Positions 1-57,517 of a stretch of 64,000 bases of DNA are shown here, one piece after another. The position numbers and the translations under genes were made by a program. Under the pieces are notes generated by a model. It was given only the letters and a program-made list of their open reading frames with translations. It was not told the origin of the DNA and did no database searches. The DNA is from Acidimicrobiia bacterium. GTDB taxonomy: Bacteria > Actinomycetota > Acidimicrobiia > IMCC26256 > PALSA-610. How positions within the stretch are numbered: the stretch's first letter is position 1; every line of letters starts with the position of its first letter. The stretch spans positions 15,144-79,143 of the forward strand of contig JBBREP010000005.1 in NCBI GenBank assembly GCA_038202885.1, in the 5' to 3' direction.

Positions 1-625
1 ATGCCGCGGCGACCACGTCGACACGCAGTGTCCGTACGGTGCCCGCTGGGTGGCCGTCAAGCTCCAGTGGCACGTCCCGAGGCCCGGCGACCACGAACGA
101 GCGCACACGCCGCTGCTCGATCCCTGGGTGGGGCAGGTGCGTACCGGTGCGGAGTCGCTGGCGCATGGCGCCACGCTGCCGGCCGCCGAGGCGATAACGC
201 TGGAGTTCGGCGTAGCCATCGCCGGGGTGTCCACGCGGCACGAGGTCGAGCCCGTGATGAAACTGGCCGATGGCAACGACCGCGCTCAGTACCGTGCCGC
301 TGTCGTCGCCGAGATCGATGCTGCGGGTCCGCCAGGTGATGTGCTCGGGCGACGGACCGAATACGGCCATGTTGACCGCAATGCGTCCGTCGTCGAGGCG
401 CAACACGTCCATCGGTACCGCCCAGTGTGGCGCAGGCTCGGTGTGGCCGCTGCCCCCGGCCGCGATGCCCACTGCGAGCGCAAGCTGACTCGTCGCGTCG
501 GCCACGAACCGCACCAACGCTCCGGGGTGCGCGGCGACGGCCGCGGCGAGGGCGTCGTCGCCGCCGGCGACGACCAGATCGGGTGGGCCGACCGACGGCA
601 CGCCCCAGGCTTCACCGGGCTTCAT
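1..625 (-). CDS. Diacylglycerol-kinase-like (YegS/DAGK accessory domain) protein, runs off the left edge; not in the supplied ORF track
   Basis: Manual translation from ATG 625: MKPGEAWGVPSVGPPDLVVAGGDDALAAAV...HPGDGYAELQRY...PLELDGHPAGTVRTLRVDVVAAA. It has a degenerate GGD motif and a C-terminal 'lelDG' motif typical of DAGK accessory domains. The frame is open to base 2. Confidence 0.65.
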   Translation of the reverse strand, partial: MKPGEAWGVPSVGPPDLVVAGGDDALAAAVAAHPGALVRFVADATSQLALAVGIAAGGSGHTEPAPHWAVPMDVLRLDDGRIAVNMAVFGPSPEHITWRTRSIDLGDDSGTVLSAVVAIGQFHHGLDLVPRGHPGDGYAELQRYRLGGRQRGAMRQRLRTGTHLPHPGIEQRRVRSFVVAGPRDVPLELDGHPAGTVRTLRVDVVAAA

Positions 626-19358: not shown

Positions 19359-20108
19359 TCAGCGAGCGACCGCGTAGCCGCCGTCGGCAACGAGCATCGA
19401 GCCGGTGACGAAGCTGGCCGCGTCCGAACACAGAAACAGCGCCGGTCCGACCATCTCGTCGGGGTCGGCGGCACGCTTCATGAAGCTGATCTCGGCCATG
19501 CGCTGCACCGCTTCGGGACCGTTGTTCCGGACCATGTCGGTATTGACTGTCCCCGGCGCCAGAGCATTGACGCGAATCCCGTCGCCGGCCCACTCGGCCG
19601 CGAGGTTGCGAGTCCACGCGAGCAGCGCGGCCTTACCACCCGCGTACAGGCCCATACCGGGCGAGTGCGTCAGCGCACCGACCGACAGCACGTTGAGTAC
19701 CGCGGCATGGTCGCTCGTCACGAGATACGGGTGGGCGGCCTTGGCGAGAAACACCGGACCGCGCAGATTGACCGCGTGCGATTTGTCCCAACCTTCTGCG
19801 GTGAGTGCTGTGGTCGCTTGCGAAAGCGCGTTCGCAGCGTTGTTCACCACGATGTCGATCGCGCCGAACCGCGCGACCGTCGCGGCCACGAGCGCTTCGA
19901 TGGCATCGGTGTCGCCGAGGTGGGTCGCCACGCCGATCGCCTCGCCGCCCATCGCGACGAGCGCGCCTTCGGTCTGCGCGCAGGCATCGGCCTTGCGGCT
20001 GGCCACCACGACCTTGGCGCCCGCACAGACGAACCCTTCGGCGATCGCCCGCCCGATGGCGACACGCCCCGACAGGTCGAACAGGTGCCCGAGCTTCTCT
20101 GCGTCCAT
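19359..20108 (-). CDS. Short-chain dehydrogenase/reductase lacking the TGxxxGxG motif (possible pseudo-enzyme)
   Basis: NNA, YxxxK (YAGGK) and IRVNALAPG are present, but the N-terminus reads GRVAIGRAIA with no glycine-rich loop. Confidence 0.8.
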   Translation of the reverse strand: MDAEKLGHLFDLSGRVAIGRAIAEGFVCAGAKVVVASRKADACAQTEGALVAMGGEAIGVATHLGDTDAIEALVAATVARFGAIDIVVNNAANALSQATTALTAEGWDKSHAVNLRGPVFLAKAAHPYLVTSDHAAVLNVLSVGALTHSPGMGLYAGGKAALLAWTRNLAAEWAGDGIRVNALAPGTVNTDMVRNNGPEAVQRMAEISFMKRAADPDEMVGPALFLCSDAASFVTGSMLVADGGYAVAR

Positions 20109-51204: not shown

Positions 51205-52152
51205 GTGGCACCCGCAATCGCAGTCTCGGGACTCGTGAAGACATTTGGGGCGGCCCGAGCGCTGGACGGGCTCGATCTTCACGTCGATACCGGCGAGGTG
51301 CACGGCTTCCTGGGGCCGAACGGCGCGGGAAAAACCACCACGATCCGCGTCCTCCTCGGCATGCTGCGCGCCGACGAGGGGCGCGTCGAGCTCCTGGGCG
51401 GTGATCCGTGGCGCGATGCCGTCGAGTTGCACCGGCGAATCGCGTATGTGCCGGGTGAGCTCAACTTGTGGCCGAAGCTCAGCGGCGGCGAGGTGATCGA
51501 CATGCTCGGCCGGTTGCGGGGCGAGCTGGATGAGCGCCGGCGCGAGGACCTGATCGAACGCTTCGAGCTCGACCCCACCAAGAAGGCCCGGACGTATTCG
51601 AAGGGAAACCGTCAAAAGGTTGGCTTGGTGGCCGCGCTGGCGTCCGACGCGGAGCTGTTGATCCTCGACGAGCCGACATCGGGTCTCGACCCGCTGATGG
51701 AGGCGGTCTTCCAGGACTGCATACGCGAGGTCAAAGCCGAAGGTCGAACGGTGTTGTTGTCGAGCCACATCCTCGCGGAGGTCGAAGCGCTCTGCGACCG
51801 CGTGAGCATCATCCGCGCCGGGCGAACACAACAGACAGGAACGCTCGCGGAGCTGCGGCACCTCACGCGCACGTCGATCACCGCGGAGACGGCACAGGCG
51901 GCCGACACGCTCGCGAATCTCCTCGGCGTGCACGATCTTGAGATCAACGACACCCATGTGCACTTCGATGTCGACACGGTGCATCTCGAAACGGCGATGC
52001 GTCGCCTGAGCGAACTCGGGATCCGCAGCCTGCTCAGTCACCCGCCGACCTTGGAGGAGCTGTTCCTCCGCCACTACGGCGACGAACTCGCGCGCGAACG
52101 CGATCGTGCGCAGCATGATCGTCCCGACCGCGACGCGTACGACGCACGGTGA
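51205..52152 (+). CDS. ABC exporter ATP-binding protein
   Basis: [17 protein letters not shown] and [10 protein letters not shown]. Confidence 0.92.
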
Positions 52153-53747
52153 CGACCGCGCCGGTGGAGTTCACGGGCACGGCGATCCTCACGCGCTTCG
52201 TCCTGCGCTCGGAGCGCGTCCGCATCCTCATCTGGATCGCAGCGATTGTCGCGTTAGTCATCGCAACGGTCGCGAGTGTCAAGGGCTTGTACCCCACCGC
52301 AGCTGACCTCCGGCAAGCCGCCATCGCGTCGCAGGGCAACGCCGCGGCGATCGCGTTCAATGGCCCAGCACAGGGTCTCGACACCGTTGGTGGCCAAGTC
52401 GCGTTTCAGCTCGGGGCGATCGGGCTCGTCGTCGTGTCGCTCATGAACCTGTTGCTGATGGGTCGCCTCACCCGCGGCGAGGAGGAAGCGGGCCGCTTGG
52501 AACTCCTGCGATCGCTGCCGATCGGGCCGTACTCCGCTCCCGCAGCTGCGATGGTCACCATCGCAGCCGTCGACGCGATCGTGGGCGGGTTGGTCACTCT
52601 CATTACGCGCGCAGAGGGACTGCCGACCGCCGGTTCGATTGCGTTCGGGGCATCCTTCATGCTCGTCGGCGCGCTGTTCGGCGCAGTCGCGCTGATCGCG
52701 GCGCAGGTAAGTGAGAACACCCGCGTCGTCTACGGCATGGCCGGCGCGGCGCTCGCCGCCTCGTTCGTACTCCGCGCTGTCGGCGACATCGGCAACGGCG
52801 CGATTTCGTGGCTTTCTCCCATTGGTTGGGCGCAAAAGACGCGACCCTTCGCGGGCGAGCAATGGTGGCCGTTCCTCCCCATCATCGCGACAACCGCGGC
52901 GTTGGTTGCGATCGCGGTAGCGCTGTCTCGCCGACGTGACGTCGGCGGTGGTCTCGTGGCGCCGCGCCCCGGTCGCCACCACGCAGCGCCGAGCCTTGGG
53001 CGCCCAGTGGGTTTGGCAACACGACTGCAGCGTGGCAGCGTCATCGGTTGGAGTGTCGGCATCGCACTCACGGGGATCGCCTACGGATCGATCGCCGACA
53101 GCATCAACGACTTCGTCAAGGACAACAAGACCCTCGCCGACATCATTGCGGCCCGCGGCGGAGCAAACCTCATCGACTCGTATCTCGCGATGTCGTTCCG
53201 CATCCTCGCCCTCGCCGCCGCGGGCTTCGCGATGCAATCAGCACTCCGGCTGCGAAGCGAGGAGACGGCGCTCCATGCCGAACAGATCTTGGCGACAGCC
53301 GTCTCGCGCGTCCGCTGGGCCGCGAGCCACCTCACCGTTGCGTTGGGTGGCACGTTGGTAGTGCTGTGCGTTTCGGGTGTGTCCGTCGGCGTGTCCGCAG
53401 CGGTGGTCACCGGAGACCGCGACATGGTGCTGCGCTCCATCGGTGCGGCGCTGGCGTATGCGCCCGCGGTGTGGTTGCTCGTCGGGCTCACCGTCGCGTG
53501 CATCGGGATCGCGCCACGCGCTGCCGCGGCAGCGAGTTGGGGTTTCCTGGCCGTCTGTTTCGTGATCGGGATGCTTGGCCAACTTCTCGATCTGCCCGTG
53601 TGGACGCAGGACGTGTCACCGTTCCAGCACGTACCGCAACTCCCGGCCGCCGATCTCACCGTCGTCCCGTTGCTCACGCTCGCCCTCATCGCGGCCGCGC
53701 TCACCACCACCGGCCTGGTCGGACTGCGCCAGCGCGACATCGGCTGA
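52149..53747 (+). CDS. Double-length ABC-2 exporter permease (tetronasin-resistance TnrB-like)
   Basis: About 12 TM segments; TRGEEE.GR.EL, WLSPIGW and RRD.G; GTGA overlap with the ATPase. Confidence 0.85.
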
Positions 53748-53780
53748 GACCCTGCGATGCCTCAGCTCACGAACGCCGTC

Positions 53781-53797
53781 GTGGCATTTCTTGCCAC
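53781..53797 (+). terminator. Hairpin after the ABC operon
   Basis: GTGGCA-TTTCT-TGCCAC. Confidence 0.4.
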
Positions 53798-53843
53798 CAG
53801 TGGTACTTGCGTCGCAAATATTCATCCTCAGATACCAATGGAC
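53795..53843. repeat. 49-bp inverted-repeat element, copy 1 (degenerate)
   Basis: CACCAGTGGTACTT-GCGTCGCAAATATTCATCCTC-AGATACCAATGGAC; 36 of 49 identical to the copy at 56457. Confidence 0.75.
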
Positions 53844-53900
53844 GGCCAGCGATCCATGGCATAGCGGCCGCTCGACGAGCGCGGCGCGACAGACTGGAGC

Positions 53901-54191
53901 GTGCGCATCGAGATCCACGTCCGGCCCGCGTCATCCAAGACGGTGGTCGGTGGCGAGTACGACGGCGTGCTCGTCGTGCGCGTCGTCGAGCCCGCGGACG
54001 GCGGGCGCGCAACGGCTGCATCGCTGCGGGCCGTCGCCAAGGCCCTCGCGCTCCCTCAGCGATCGGTGACGCTGGCCCGAGGCGCCACCAGTCGGCGCAA
54101 GCTCATCGACATCGCCGTCGCACCCGGCGCCAGCGCGTCGATCACGACCATGCTCCAAGAGCTTCGTGCCAACAGGACCGACGATCGCTGA
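53901..54191 (+). CDS. DUF167 (YggU) family protein
   Basis: IHVRP.SS..VVGG....LVVRV..PA.GG.A and G.TSRRK; GGAG RBS. Confidence 0.85.
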   Translation: MRIEIHVRPASSKTVVGGEYDGVLVVRVVEPADGGRATAASLRAVAKALALPQRSVTLARGATSRRKLIDIAVAPGASASITTMLQELRANRTDDR

Positions 54192-54247
54192 GCAGCGCGG
54201 ATGCGCTCGCCCCTTCTCTCGATCTGCTTCAGACGGCTGGCGCCGGC

Positions 54248-55192
54248 TTATGACTGTGTCTCCAGCGATCGCATTTGCTCCGCAACGGTCACCACGTTCG
54301 TGATGATCTCGCCGAACGAATTCGGGTCGGCAAGCAGCCAACTGTGACCGCCTTCGACCGTATGCACTTCCTTCGCGCCCACCGCTGCAATGAGCGAGTC
54401 GATCGACATCCGGCCCACGATCCGATCGCGCGCACCCCAGACGACCACGACGGGCAGTTCTCGCGCCTTGAGGTCCTCGAGTTCGGTCGTGAGATCGGCA
54501 AAGCGGGCGAGGCTCGCTGCCTGCCAGACCGCACGCGGGTTGCGAAGCGCGTTGATGACCGCATCGTGGACGATCACGGGTAACACACGCCGCATCTGGC
54601 GCGCCGGAAAGATGTCGGCTGGGAAGTGCAGGCCCCAATCCCACAACGGCCGGGCTTTCATCGTCTCGATGATCGAGCCGTGCTTGCGCCATGCCGACCC
54701 ACCGATGGAGTCGATGAGCACAAGGGCCCGGACTCGCTTCGGATGGTCATGAGCAAGGCGGATCGCGACGGCGCCGCCGAACGAATGGCCGACCAGCACG
54801 ACCGGCCCGCCGGTGTCGACAGCACCCAGGAAGCGATCGACCCATTCCGCGTAGTCGCCGAGCTCGGAATGGTCGGGCAACGGCGCACTTGCGCCGTGGC
54901 CCGGCAACGCCGGCGCAATCACGCGAAAGCCTGCCGCGGCGAGCCGCTCGAGGCCGGCACGATAGGTCGAGTTCGTCAGGGCCCAACCGTGCAGAAACAC
55001 GACGGTCGGCGCCAATGAGGTCAACTCCCCCGAGACGCCGTAGCCCACCTGGAGCCCCGCGATCATCGTGGTCCGCCACTCGAATGACACGCGTTGCGAA
55101 TCGGCGCCACCGGAAACGGCCTCCGTCTTCGGCGGGGAAACGCCGTCACGGGACGCTACGGCGACAGACGGATTGATGCGCGAGATCGGCAC
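54248..55192 (-). CDS. Alpha/beta hydrolase
   Basis: VFLHGW, PALPGHG, GHSFGG and GGHSW. The start is uncertain (55192 or 55066). Confidence 0.88.
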   Translation of the reverse strand: MPISRINPSVAVASRDGVSPPKTEAVSGGADSQRVSFEWRTTMIAGLQVGYGVSGELTSLAPTVVFLHGWALTNSTYRAGLERLAAAGFRVIAPALPGHGASAPLPDHSELGDYAEWVDRFLGAVDTGGPVVLVGHSFGGAVAIRLAHDHPKRVRALVLIDSIGGSAWRKHGSIIETMKARPLWDWGLHFPADIFPARQMRRVLPVIVHDAVINALRNPRAVWQAASLARFADLTTELEDLKARELPVVVVWGARDRIVGRMSIDSLIAAVGAKEVHTVEGGHSWLLADPNSFGEIITNVVTVAEQMRSLETQS

Positions 55193-55232
55193 TGCGCCCC
55201 TCGGTTCGTTGGTCAACGTGGTGCCAGGATGC

Positions 55233-56354
55233 TCACCAGCGCAGGAGCGCACCGATGCCCTCGGCCGGACCGCCACCGCCCGGCACTACCCAGACGCCCG
55301 CACTCGTGCCCAACGCCGCGCGGATCGCGACGTCGACCAGGAGGCTTGACTTCGGCGTGGTGACGCCGAGTTCGCGCAACTCCTCCGCGCCGGCCGATAC
55401 GGGCACCGGGCCGTCACCGAACCATGCCCGCCGATCGTCGCTCCAATCGTGATGCACGAGCAGCAGCTCAACCCGACCTTGTTCCAGGGCATGCAATGTG
55501 CCGACGACCCCCTCGACCGCACGGTCTTGTTGCCCACGCGCCTCGCGAAACGTTTCGAGCACAGCCACCGTCGACCGGGCCGCCGCGGTCATGACCCAGC
55601 GGTGCGCCTCCTCGGCGACGGCATCGTCAGAACCGTGGGCCGACCGACCCCCCGCCACGTGCTCGGTAAGGCGTACCGTGCGGTCGGGCAGGTGATGCTC
55701 GAGCAACTCAACGGCGCGTACATCTCCGGCAACGACGATGACCTCGGCGCCGACCTCGTCGCTGGCCCGCTGCACCTCGTCGGCAATCTGGCGTGCGTTG
55801 GCTTCCCACGAGTTCTCGGCTCTGCGCTGGTACCGCGACTGTGACCAACCGCCAGGTGCAACTTTGCGCATCGGCGTCGTGTGGTCGCCATCGACGGAAC
55901 GCACCTCGCGGTCACCATGTCGAGGGACAACAGTGATGTCGGCGCCGCGCCGGTCTGTGAGCACCACCACGTAGGGCGGCGACTGTTGCCTCCAGCGGAT
56001 GAGCGGGCTGATGACCGGCACGCCGTCCCAGGACGCGAAGTCCGACGGAGGGGCGTCGGGACCGTGCTCGACGTGCACGAGCGCGTCGGCCGACGCGAAT
56101 GCCGCGAGACACGCACCATGCATGTGCGCGTCGGCGACGAGTGCTTCGATGCGATCGAGCGCGCTCGCAGGCGCATCTTGGTCTTCGAGCACGGACCGCA
56201 GGTTGCCCCAGCGTTGGAGCGATGCGACGCCCGCATTCACAATGTCGCCTTCGGTCGCCATGTACACGCTGACCATCGGCGTAGCCGAGGCCGCGAGTTC
56301 GTGCAGGTCCGCCCAATGGCTGGAACCGGCGAGGGTCTTTGCGGAGAGGTCCAT
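55233..56354 (-). CDS. Bacterial eRF1/Vms1-like peptide release factor family protein (baeRF2 type)
   Basis: KVAPGGWSQSRYQRRAENSW..NA, IVVAGDVRA, AVEG...L..L.QG.VE.LL and a C-terminal GIGALLRW. Confidence 0.8.
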   Translation of the reverse strand: MDLSAKTLAGSSHWADLHELAASATPMVSVYMATEGDIVNAGVASLQRWGNLRSVLEDQDAPASALDRIEALVADAHMHGACLAAFASADALVHVEHGPDAPPSDFASWDGVPVISPLIRWRQQSPPYVVVLTDRRGADITVVPRHGDREVRSVDGDHTTPMRKVAPGGWSQSRYQRRAENSWEANARQIADEVQRASDEVGAEVIVVAGDVRAVELLEHHLPDRTVRLTEHVAGGRSAHGSDDAVAEEAHRWVMTAAARSTVAVLETFREARGQQDRAVEGVVGTLHALEQGRVELLLVHHDWSDDRRAWFGDGPVPVSAGAEELRELGVTTPKSSLLVDVAIRAALGTSAGVWVVPGGGGPAEGIGALLRW

Positions 56355-56456
56355 GCGTCCAGCATCGCGGGATCCGCCCTCGCACTCCAGGGCCGAAGGA
56401 CCCTCTCCGGTCGGGTTATGGCCCCGATCGTCGTGCTCGCCGCCCGCTAGGCGCGG

Positions 56457-56505
56457 GTCCATTGGTACTTCCGGTGCGATTATTCAACGGCAAGTACCAA
56501 TGGAC
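56457..56505. repeat. 49-bp inverted-repeat element, copy 2 (perfect 14-bp arms)
   Basis: GTCCATTGGTACTT-CCGGTGCGATTATTCAACGGC-AAGTACCAATGGAC. Confidence 0.85.
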
Positions 56506-56514
56506 GCCAGAGGA

Positions 56515-57450
56515 TCAGCCCGCAACGATGGTGGACTCGCCGCGATTGGTGCCGTCGTGAATGAGACGGGCACGTGCCCCGGCGTCGCCGAGCAGCGTGA
56601 CGTCGAAGAAGTCGATCGATGTCTGGGTCGCGGTGCGGTCGTGGGGCGAGGGCGTGTTCTCGTACGCCTCGGGATGAATACCGGTGTGGAACGTCAGCAA
56701 CCACTTTGGCGCCGCGCTGTCGACAAAGGCCTGTTTCGCGACGGCGTAGGGCGCCGCGATGTCGGTGTCGATGTGCGCGATCAGTACGGGAATGGTGTTC
56801 TGGCCGAATGGCTGCGCGAACGGGAGACGGACGCCATCGAAAATGGCGGCGGCGCGCAGTCGCGCGTCGACACAACATGGGTCGTAGACCAACCCGTAGG
56901 TCGTGGCGCCACCAAGCGACAGTCCCGCCGCACCGATACGCGCGGTATCGATCTGTGTGCGCAGGGGCCCATGCAGGAGCTGGGTCAGCACGAAGCTGAT
57001 GTCGGCGGGTTGGTCCAGGTAATCGGTGACGATGTCGTACGGGGCCCCGCGAGTGCTCGTCAGCGGGAACTGCGGCGCCGCAACGATGTAGCCCGCGCGG
57101 GCCCAGGCACTGAACAACTGCGAGAATTTTGCGGGCGCGCCGTGATAGCCGTGCGAGAACATGATGAGTGGGCGCGGCGTCGTGGCCTTCGGCATGTAGA
57201 GGTCGGTCGGCAACGAACGACTCGCCGAGTATGCGCCATTCCCGGGCGTCGCAGTCGGTCGCGTCGTGTCGACGAACACCTCGTGACGCACGGTGACGCC
57301 GAACGGCCGATGCTCGACGACACGCGCCAAGGCGGTCGTGGTGGGTTGCCGGCTCGAACCCGTGGCCTTCGACGACGACGACGACGATGCACACGCGCCT
57401 ACCGTCAGCACGCACATGGCCACGGCGACGTGGGAGAATCTCACCGGCAT
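56515..57450 (-). CDS. Lipoprotein alpha/beta hydrolase (chlorophyllase/PAF-AH-like)
   Basis: Lipobox VGAC; MFSHG, GLSLGG nucleophile elbow, D and H in the C-terminal half; TAGGGT 7 nt before the ATG. Confidence 0.82.
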   Translation of the reverse strand: MPVRFSHVAVAMCVLTVGACASSSSSSKATGSSRQPTTTALARVVEHRPFGVTVRHEVFVDTTRPTATPGNGAYSASRSLPTDLYMPKATTPRPLIMFSHGYHGAPAKFSQLFSAWARAGYIVAAPQFPLTSTRGAPYDIVTDYLDQPADISFVLTQLLHGPLRTQIDTARIGAAGLSLGGATTYGLVYDPCCVDARLRAAAIFDGVRLPFAQPFGQNTIPVLIAHIDTDIAAPYAVAKQAFVDSAAPKWLLTFHTGIHPEAYENTPSPHDRTATQTSIDFFDVTLLGDAGARARLIHDGTNRGESTIVAG

Positions 57451-57517
57451 GGCGCGGACCCTAGCGAACGGCCAGCGAAGAGGCGAGCACGTCCGAGGCC
57501 GTTGCGCCATCGCGCGG

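What the first reader, a model, noticed from the sequence alone, without database searches (positions are those of the whole stretch)
53795..56505. Two copies of an unannotated 49-bp inverted-repeat element bracket a three-gene block (DUF167, hydrolase, baeRF2)
Seen: copy 2 has perfect 14-bp arms (GTCCATTGGTACTT / AAGTACCAATGGAC) around a 21-nt core. Copy 1, 2662 bp upstream in the same orientation, matches at 36 of 49 positions, including the core TATTCA, and similarity continues a few bases further (GGCCAGCGATC vs GCCAGAGGATC). Both are AT-rich for this genome and intergenic. Shared core sequence argues against independent terminators. No recombinase or transposase is in the window. Inference: recombination sites delimiting an excisable cassette, a MITE family, or a long two-domain operator for an unknown regulator.
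Basis: partly seen in the sequence, partly recalled or inferred. Interest (0 to 1): 0.65.

Follow-up and report, generated by a model that had tools for sequence, protein, structure and literature searches.

The report
Dispersed palindromes tied to a nuclease gene
The two 49-bp inverted repeats are not the ends of a gene cassette: they are two of about 19 scattered copies of a REP-like palindrome, and two further copies frame a gene elsewhere in the genome for a DNA-binding nuclease, an arrangement like REP/RAYT but with an unrelated enzyme that I did not find described in print.

Summary
Copy 2 (56457-56505) is an intact 49-bp palindrome. Copy 1 (53795-53843) is a degenerate copy in the same orientation.

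They are not a private pair. The genome holds 17 full copies plus 2 cut by contig ends. Arm spacing is always 37 bp. About 12 of 17 copies lie 1-18 nt after a stop codon, next to unrelated housekeeping genes.

On another contig, two copies precisely frame one gene: an AbiEi-type DNA-binding module fused to a Vsr/DUF559-type nuclease. Four of its five paralogs in this genome are framed the same way, each by a different repeat. Three of those repeats are palindrome families of about 45, 33 and 14 copies. Homologs in both congeners, and roughly half of 28 other genomes of the order, show the same layout.

The 49-bp family occurs only in the two genomes that carry the ortholog, and its arms co-vary with the gene. 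Its 23+3+23 layout equals the published AbiEi operator geometry.

Best reading: these are solo copies of a REP-like repeat partnered with this nuclease. That the protein binds, cuts or spreads the repeat is inferred, not shown. The three-gene "bracket" is most likely coincidental. The excisable-cassette idea is not supported. No RAYT, no target-site duplications and no Rfam match were found.

The parts
53795..53843 (.). Copy 1 of the 49-bp palindromic element: degenerate solo copy (3+1 arm mismatches), same orientation as copy 2
   Evidence: 57.7 bits with model R1; fold no better than shuffles; 47 nt after the stop of the ABC-2 permease ORF
56457..56505 (.). Copy 2 of the 49-bp palindromic element: intact solo copy with perfect 14-bp arms; interior carries GGTGCGATTATTC, matching the family motif GGCGCAAyTATT
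   Evidence: 70.7 bits; DNA hairpin -19.5 kcal/mol, z -5.8; 9 nt after the stop of the 56515-57510 ORF
52149..53747 (+). ABC-2-type permease ORF (no Pfam hit; follows an ABC ATPase) whose 3' end precedes copy 1
53901..54191 (+). DUF167 (YggU family) gene, inside the bracketed block
   Evidence: PF02594, 64 bits
54248..55276 (-). Alpha/beta hydrolase gene, inside the block; its G001 ortholog (70% aa) lies elsewhere without the other two block genes
55233..56462 (-). baeRF2 (eRF1-like) gene. The longest ORF starts at the ATG inside the arm of copy 2 (56462); a second in-frame ATG is at 56354
   Evidence: PF18844, 140 bits
56515..57510 (-). Chlorophyllase-like hydrolase gene whose stop codon lies 9 nt from copy 2. 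It is conserved in both congeners, where it is followed by a different convergent gene and no element

Best explanation
The two elements are solo members of a lineage-specific, REP-like family of 49-bp palindromes (17 full copies plus 2 contig-edge halves). The family is partnered with one gene of the same genome (contig C2:120374-121294, outside the window). That gene encodes an AbiEi-type winged-helix DNA-binding module fused to a Vsr/DUF559-type nuclease, and it is itself framed by two copies. SHOWN: the family and its fixed geometry; its placement just after stop codons of unrelated genes; the framing of the cognate gene; the same gene-between-its-own-repeats layout for four of the five paralogs here (three with their own palindrome families of 14-45 copies), for homologs in both congeners and for about half of 28 other genomes of the order; occurrence of this family only in the two genomes that have the ortholog; compensatory change in the arms. 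INFERRED: two monomers of the AbiEi-like module bind the two 23-bp halves of the palindrome, as AbiEi does at its operator. The copy overlapping the gene's start would act as its autoregulatory site. The tethered nuclease would cut at or near the palindrome, and this interaction would keep the family alike and seed new copies at gene 3' ends, either by repair-mediated copying or by insertion of whole units followed by loss of the gene. At the two window sites the elements most likely have no cassette function. Copy 2 may incidentally act as a hairpin at the 3' end of the upstream transcript and offers an outward-facing ATG to baeRF2. Copy 1 is decaying.
For: Family: 17 copies, arms always 37 bp start-to-start, confirmed by nhmmer and covariance model R1. 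Placement: about 12 of 17 copies lie 1-18 nt after a stop or contain the stop. With a conservative genome-wide gene set, 7/17 lie within 25 nt after a stop against 3% for random intergenic positions; sister families give 23/29, 7/14 and 15/38; only 4 of 98 copies lie between divergent genes against 23% expected. Neighbours are functionally unrelated: gatB, rpsJ, a HemN-like gene, acyl-CoA dehydrogenases, esterases. Cognate gene: two copies 92% identical frame a 306-aa ORF, 6 nt after its stop and overlapping its ATG. Pfam gives AbiEi_4, REase_MTES_1575 and DUF559, all above cut-off. The AF2 model (pLDDT 88.7) matches AbiEi 6Y8Q (E 1.5e-6) and Rv2827c in the N-terminal ~200 residues, and I-Bth0305I, NGO0050 and AbaSI nuclease domains in the C-terminal part. 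D238, E249 and D265 are invariant and H256 nearly so, aligning with Vsr catalytic positions. Generality: 5 of 6 paralogs are framed by their own repeat, with 45, 33 and 14 genome-wide copies for three of them. 14-16 of 30 loci from 28 other genomes exceed the control's 95th percentile. All four further congener homologs examined are framed. Co-occurrence: the family is found only in this genome and G002 (4 copies), the two with the ortholog; G001 has neither. No sister repeat family was found without a homolog of its gene. The pair flanking the G002 ortholog has a similar interior but changed arms; 8 of 15 stem pairs change on both sides. Insertion boundary: own and G001 LLM proteins diverge exactly at the element's edge, and the element supplies 7 new residues and the stop. 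Geometry: AbiEi binds two 23-bp inverted repeats 3 bp apart, 49 bp in total (PMC7319586).
Against: No binding, cutting or mobility was observed; all of that is inference. A note from this scan reports that a pre-set test on other genomes went against the repeat travelling with the gene, so my three-genome co-occurrence result is thin. The nearest out-of-genus homologs (44-49% identity) showed no framing repeats within 400 nt. One of 60 control pairs scored as high as true pairs and was not followed up. The two C129-type units in G002 are only 69% identical, so there is no sign of recent whole-unit movement. There are no target-site duplications. Intergenic DNA in the congeners is too diverged to define empty sites base by base. 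Arm conservation is partly built into how the copies were found, although no copies with a conserved interior and decayed arms turned up. Compensatory arm changes fit a hairpin as well as a symmetric protein site.
Confidence: 0.7

Rival explanations
1. The two copies are recombination sites that delimit an excisable or once-inserted 2.66-kb cassette (DUF167, hydrolase, baeRF2).
For: The copies are in direct orientation. The block's genes have no DNA-level match next to the conserved flanking gene in the congeners, and synteny breaks at copy 2. On contig C2, two copies do frame a gene that is absent from the same site in G001. Several solo copies sit where the congeners have 1-3.6 kb of extra DNA.
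Against: At least 13 of the 17 copies stand alone. One extra pair within 2.7 kb is unremarkable by my own estimate (0.18 expected by chance). Each window copy adjoins the 3' end of a gene outside the block. Copy 1 is degenerate, and the two share at most about 11 identical bases in a row. The G001 hydrolase ortholog is not accompanied by the other two genes. No hybrid site or relic was seen in the congeners. I had no baseline rate of synteny breaks to compare against.
Confidence: 0.07
2. The copies are host-selected hairpins (bidirectional terminators or 3'-end mRNA stabilisers), and the link with the nuclease gene is incidental: the gene simply uses the same hairpin as operator and terminator.
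For: Strong bias to positions just after stop codons, including between convergent genes. Orientation is random relative to the upstream gene: 7 against 5, read off. Copy 2 is a stable hairpin. A different 49-nt palindrome sits at the orthologous acyl-CoA dehydrogenase 3' end in G002.
Against: No T-tract; the terminator scan does not flag either copy. A conserved 12-nt arm sequence and a conserved unpaired motif are not needed for a terminator. Each paralog has its own repeat family, which co-varies with the gene. The family is absent where the gene is absent. Some copies sit in divergent promoter regions or inside the ends of ORFs.
Confidence: 0.13
3. Solo copies are footprints rather than independently moving repeats: whole repeat-gene-repeat units inserted at gene 3' ends, and recombination between the two direct repeats later deleted the gene, as with solo LTRs.
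For: In four of the five framed units here the repeats are direct. The C2 unit sits between convergent genes, just as the solo copies do. Solo copies have diverged interiors, as expected of old relics.
Against: A 49-bp repeat is a short substrate for homologous recombination. Only one gene copy per family exists here, and no recent unit duplicates were seen. The C37 and C169 solo copies differ at one of 49 positions yet have unrelated flanks, which suggests recent copying of the short element itself.
Confidence: 0.1

Closest known systems
REP/REPIN elements with RAYT transposases (REPtrons), e.g. Bertels & Rainey 2011 (PMC3116915)
   Same: Short extragenic palindromes in tens of copies. Several distinct families occur per genome, each next to its own cognate gene, which is itself flanked by copies. 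Families are lineage-specific. Copies are biased to the 3' ends of genes.
   Different: The framed gene is an AbiEi-like wHTH fused to a Vsr/DUF559 nuclease, not a Y1 (HUH) transposase; no PF01797 match exists in the genome. The unit is a single 49-bp palindrome with a largely unpaired, sequence-conserved interior, not a REP doublet. Flanking copies are mostly direct. No mobility has been shown.
AbiEi / Rv2827c antitoxin operators (PMC7319586)
   Same: The N-terminal ~200 residues of the cognate protein have the AbiEi fold. AbiEi binds two 23-bp inverted repeats 3 bp apart, the same 49-bp layout. One copy overlaps the start of the cognate gene, as an autoregulatory operator would.
   Different: There is no AbiEii/DUF1814 toxin partner; a nuclease domain is fused instead. 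The site is repeated about 19 times across the genome and again after the gene's stop. Binding is untested.
MITEs (miniature inverted-repeat transposable elements)
   Same: A short non-coding element with terminal inverted repeats, dispersed, with presence/absence differences between species.
   Different: No target-site duplication, no transposase-bearing parent, and far shorter than typical MITEs (the size comparison is from my own knowledge).
Vsr-like (EDxHD) homing endonuclease I-Bth0305I (PDB 3R3P) and other DUF559/Vsr-clade nucleases (PMC3424549)
   Same: The C-terminal domain has the same fold and the same catalytic-type residues. It is a precedent for a selfish, site-specific nuclease of this fold.
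   Different: The gene here is not in an intron or intein. It lies between complete copies of its presumed site rather than interrupting one.

Membership tests
REP/REPIN-RAYT system | Short palindromic extragenic repeats present in many copies per genome | tested here: met
   17 full and 2 partial copies of this family; 45, 33 and 14 copies of three sister families
REP/REPIN-RAYT system | A cognate RAYT (Y1/HUH, IS200-like) transposase gene flanked by the repeats | tested here: not met
   No PF01797 match in the 96%-complete genome, while controls were detected. The framed gene is an AbiEi-Vsr/DUF559 protein
REP/REPIN-RAYT system | Replicative unit is a REP doublet forming a hairpin (REPIN) | tested here: not met
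   Copies are single 49-bp palindromes; only two close pairs exist, 970 and 2662 bp apart
REP/REPIN-RAYT system | Demonstrated or inferred transposition intermediates | not testable with these tools
MITE | Terminal inverted repeats | tested here: met
   12-14-bp arms, nearly invariant
MITE | Target-site duplications flanking each copy | tested here: not met
   No direct repeats in the flanks of the 17 copies; only C before and G after, which extend the palindrome
MITE | Derived from an autonomous IS that encodes a transposase with the same ends | tested here: not met
   The only longer unit with these ends carries the AbiEi-nuclease gene
AbiEi-type operator | Two ~23-bp inverted repeats a few bp apart | tested here: met
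   49 bp = 23+3+23, against the layout reported in PMC7319586
AbiEi-type operator | Lies over the promoter or start of the gene for the AbiEi-like protein | tested here: met
   The upstream copy overlaps the ATG of the cognate ORF on contig C2
AbiEi-type operator | Bound by the cognate protein | not testable with these tools
   Needs EMSA or footprinting
AbiE type IV toxin-antitoxin system | Partner AbiEii (DUF1814 nucleotidyltransferase) toxin gene in an operon | tested here: not met
   The unit holds a single ORF between the two repeats, and its flanks are LLM and gatB
Intrinsic (Rho-independent) terminator | G+C-rich stem followed by a T/U tract | tested here: not met
   Neither copy is flagged; the flanks are G/C-rich
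Known RNA families (Rfam 15) | Match at or near the gathering score | tested here: not met
   Only chance-level hits (best 19.6 bits against a 47-bit cut-off)

The most novel reading that the evidence does not exclude
The AbiEi-Vsr/DUF559 genes and their private palindrome families form a previously undescribed class of selfish or domesticated repeat-plus-enzyme systems in Actinobacteria, a functional analogue of REP/RAYT built on a PD-(D/E)xK-type nuclease. The winged-helix module would read the two 23-bp halves, the nuclease would cut there, and break repair would copy or homogenise the palindrome. This would seed it at gene 3' ends, where it rewrites C-termini, supplies stop codons and start codons, and marks rearrangement points such as the boundaries of the three-gene block in this window.
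Probability: 0.3. Interest if true: 0.85.

Novelty: new variant of a known kind. Interest (0 to 1): 0.6.

Why it matters
REP-like repeats are known mainly from Proteobacteria, where they depend on RAYT transposases. How comparable repeats arise in high-GC Gram-positive lineages that lack RAYTs is an open question. In this one genome, at least four palindrome families each pair with their own AbiEi-nuclease gene, and the layout recurs across the order. If the protein does recognise and process its palindrome, this would assign a function to the large, uncharacterised DUF559/AbiEi-like family. It would reveal a second, independent route to REP-like genome colonisation. It would also explain the reported enrichment of DUF559 genes among predicted inversion targets (PMC9881135). 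For annotation, it shows that these elements can alter gene ends, giving a new C-terminal tail and stop to an LLM oxidoreductase and a possible upstream start to baeRF2. It also warns that pairs of copies should not be read as cassette boundaries.

Tried and rejected
- **Rfam scan of the region:** only chance-level hits.
- **RAYT/Y1 transposase in the genome:** none.
- **Own arm pattern in 40 relatives, in 185,579 species genomes and in JGI metagenomes:** absent. The single metagenome hit is a chance hairpin in a 38% GC contig.
- **Regulon idea:** neighbours are functionally unrelated and mostly reached from their 3' ends.
- **RNA-level function with a fixed strand:** orientation relative to the upstream gene is 7 against 5, so I rejected it (read off).
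- **Target-site duplications:** none.
- **"Cassette lost, one site left" in the congeners:** at loci where the congeners have extra DNA, its borders carry no element-like sequence.
- **First inverted-repeat filter:** too strict, since it missed known copies; I replaced it with flank-anchored alignment.
- **Recent whole-unit transposition:** the two C129-type units in G002 are only 69% identical.
- **General link between all DUF559 paralogs and this 49-mer:** none; each paralog has its own repeat.
Full report
**Observation.**
- Copy 2 (56457-56505) has perfect 14-bp arms GTCCATTGGTACTT / AAGTACCAATGGAC around 21 nt.
- Copy 1 (53795-53843) lies 2662 bp upstream in the same orientation and matches at 37 of 48 aligned positions.
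- The arm pattern at this spacing is not expected by chance in the window.
- Copy 2 is a stable hairpin on either strand (z about -5.6). Copy 1 folds no better than shuffled sequence, so it is a decayed copy.
- Both are intergenic. Copy 1 lies 47 nt after the stop of an ABC-2 permease ORF. Copy 2 lies 9 nt after the stop of a chlorophyllase-like hydrolase gene and upstream of baeRF2.
- Rfam has nothing for either.

**The element is a dispersed family, not a pair.** The window is C5:15144-79143 of a 4.11-Mb, 67% GC, 229-contig assembly.
- A half-site search, a paired search, an nhmmer profile and a covariance model all recover the same 17 full copies, plus two halves cut by contig ends.
- The arms are always 37 bp apart start to start.
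- Oriented, the consensus is C-GTCCATTGGTAC-tnnnGGCGCAAyTATTsnnnnnnAA-GTACCAATGGAC-G.
- The outer 13-15 bp pair. The 21-nt interior is mostly unpaired but carries a conserved motif on one side.
- There are no target-site duplications.
- Copies C37 and C169 differ at one of 49 positions yet have unrelated flanks, which points to recent copying.

**Placement.**
- By per-locus gene calls, about 12 of 17 copies lie 1-18 nt after a stop codon or contain the stop. Two of these lie between convergent genes.
- With a deliberately conservative genome-wide gene set, 7 of 17 lie within 25 nt after a stop, against 3% of random intergenic positions.
- Copies are depleted between divergent genes.
- Neighbours are unrelated housekeeping genes: gatB, rpsJ, a HemN-like gene, acyl-CoA dehydrogenases, esterases. 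A regulon is therefore excluded.
- Orientation relative to the upstream gene is 7 against 5 (read off). This argues against a strand-specific RNA role.
- Neither window copy has a T-tract or is flagged as a terminator.

**The cognate gene.** On contig C2, two copies 970 bp apart and 92% identical frame a single 306-aa ORF. One copy lies 6 nt after its stop and the other overlaps its ATG.
- Pfam assigns AbiEi_4, REase_MTES_1575 and DUF559, all above their cut-offs.
- An AlphaFold model (pLDDT 88.7) matches the whole AbiEi antitoxin (6Y8Q, E 1.5e-6) and Rv2827c over the first ~200 residues.
- Over the last ~100 residues it matches Vsr-clade nucleases: I-Bth0305I, NGO0050 and AbaSI.
- D238, E249 and D265 are invariant and H256 nearly so across ten homologs. 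They align with Vsr catalytic positions.
- Published work shows AbiEi binding two 23-bp inverted repeats separated by 3 bp (PMC7319586). That is 49 bp, the size and symmetry of this element.

**The layout is general.**
- Four of the five paralogs in this genome (about 30% identity to the C2 protein) are also framed, each by its own repeat of 24-52 bp at 87-98% identity.
- Three of those repeats are palindrome families of at least 45, 33 and 14 copies. They show the same bias to positions just after stop codons.
- The protein family is present in 37 of 41 genomes of the order.
- In 30 fetched loci, 14-16 have a cognate flanking pair above the 95th percentile of non-cognate controls. One control outlier was not followed up.
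- All four further homologs examined in the two congeners are framed by their own diverged palindromes.

**Does the repeat go with the gene?**
- The covariance model finds this family only in this genome and in congener G002, which has 4 copies.
- G002 also carries the ortholog (63% identity) at the same place beside gatB, flanked by two of those copies.
- In G001, LLM and gatB are adjacent. G001 lacks the ortholog and has no copies.
- For the sister families, no repeat was found in a congener without a homolog of its gene.
- The orthologous flanking elements keep a similar interior but have changed arms. Eight of 15 stem pairs change on both sides. This fits a hairpin or symmetric half-sites tracking a changing protein.
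- This is a small test. A note from this scan warns that a pre-set test elsewhere went against the repeat travelling with the gene.

**Insertion boundary.** The LLM proteins of this genome and G001 are collinear up to ...SMR / ...TLR. They then diverge exactly at the element's outer edge. The element contributes PLVLPSE and a stop from its central TAA. The element can therefore rewrite gene ends.

**The three-gene block.**
- Each window copy adjoins the 3' end of a gene outside the block.
- By my own estimate, one further pair within 2.7 kb among 17 copies is expected 0.18 times by chance.
- The two copies share at most about 11 identical bases in a row.
- In both congeners the chlorophyllase-like gene is followed by another gene and no element.
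- The G001 hydrolase ortholog stands without baeRF2 or DUF167 beside it.
- Synteny does break at several element sites. I had no baseline for comparison, so a role in rearrangement stays open but unsupported.

**Literature and earlier notes.**
- None of the 25 papers in the library that mention DUF559 describes repeat-framed genes.
- One paper lists DUF559 among products enriched in predicted inversion targets (PMC9881135). Another places VSR, DUF559 and DUF2726 in one clade (PMC3424549).
- REPIN/RAYT biology is from PMC3116915.
- This scan's own unchecked notes report the same layout in many other actinobacterial genomes. They also record a 53-nt palindrome on another piece of this genome. 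I treated these as leads and re-derived the layout here.

**Verdict.** The cassette reading is not supported. The repeat-family and operator alternatives are each partly right. The two elements are solo copies of a REP-like palindrome partnered with an AbiEi-Vsr nuclease gene. Binding, cutting and mobilisation by that protein are plausible but unproven.

Noticed in passing
outside the window: G000 contigs C66:13778-14889, C77:6235-7386, C129:3059-4136: Three further units of repeat, AbiEi-DUF559 gene and repeat. Their private palindromes (52, 49 and 44-47 bp) have at least 45, 33 and 14 copies genome-wide, also concentrated just after stop codons.
   Followed up: partly
outside the window: G000 C2:119310-120344 (L013 1811-2845): An LLM-class oxidoreductase ORF runs into the element and ends at its central TAA. 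Compared with G001, the last two codons were replaced by a 7-residue element-encoded tail.
   Followed up: yes
window 56354-56462 (- strand): The longest baeRF2 ORF starts at the ATG inside the arm of copy 2 (CCAATGGAC), preceded by GGAAG 5 nt upstream. It is in frame with a second ATG 36 codons downstream. Which start is used is unknown.
   Followed up: no
L035 241-289 (G002:C149, orthologous to the C93 copy site): G002 carries an unrelated 49-nt near-perfect palindrome (TGTTTGTGCGTTTCTCGGC...GCCGAGAAACGCACAAACA) just after the orthologous acyl-CoA dehydrogenase stop, where this genome has the element studied.
   Followed up: no
window 53767-53784 (+): A small terminator-like hairpin with a T-rich tail lies between the ABC-2 permease stop and copy 1, so that gene may have its own terminator ahead of the element.
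   Followed up: no
window 407-418 (-): A lone half-site, GTACCGATGGAC (1 mismatch), with no partner at 37 bp. This is probably chance.
   Followed up: no
G000 C149:194-514 and L038/L039: rpsJ (S10) is followed by the element here. In both congeners it is followed by a small hairpin and an ORF whose translation, by my reading, looks like the start of a tyrosine-recombinase-type protein, rather than by rplC.
   Followed up: no
G000 C16:19009-19032 and 19966-19989: The C16 paralog is flanked by a 24-bp direct repeat that includes its own start codon region (GGGAAGAATGCCCCAAGAACGGGC). This is a non-palindromic variant of the framing.
   Followed up: no
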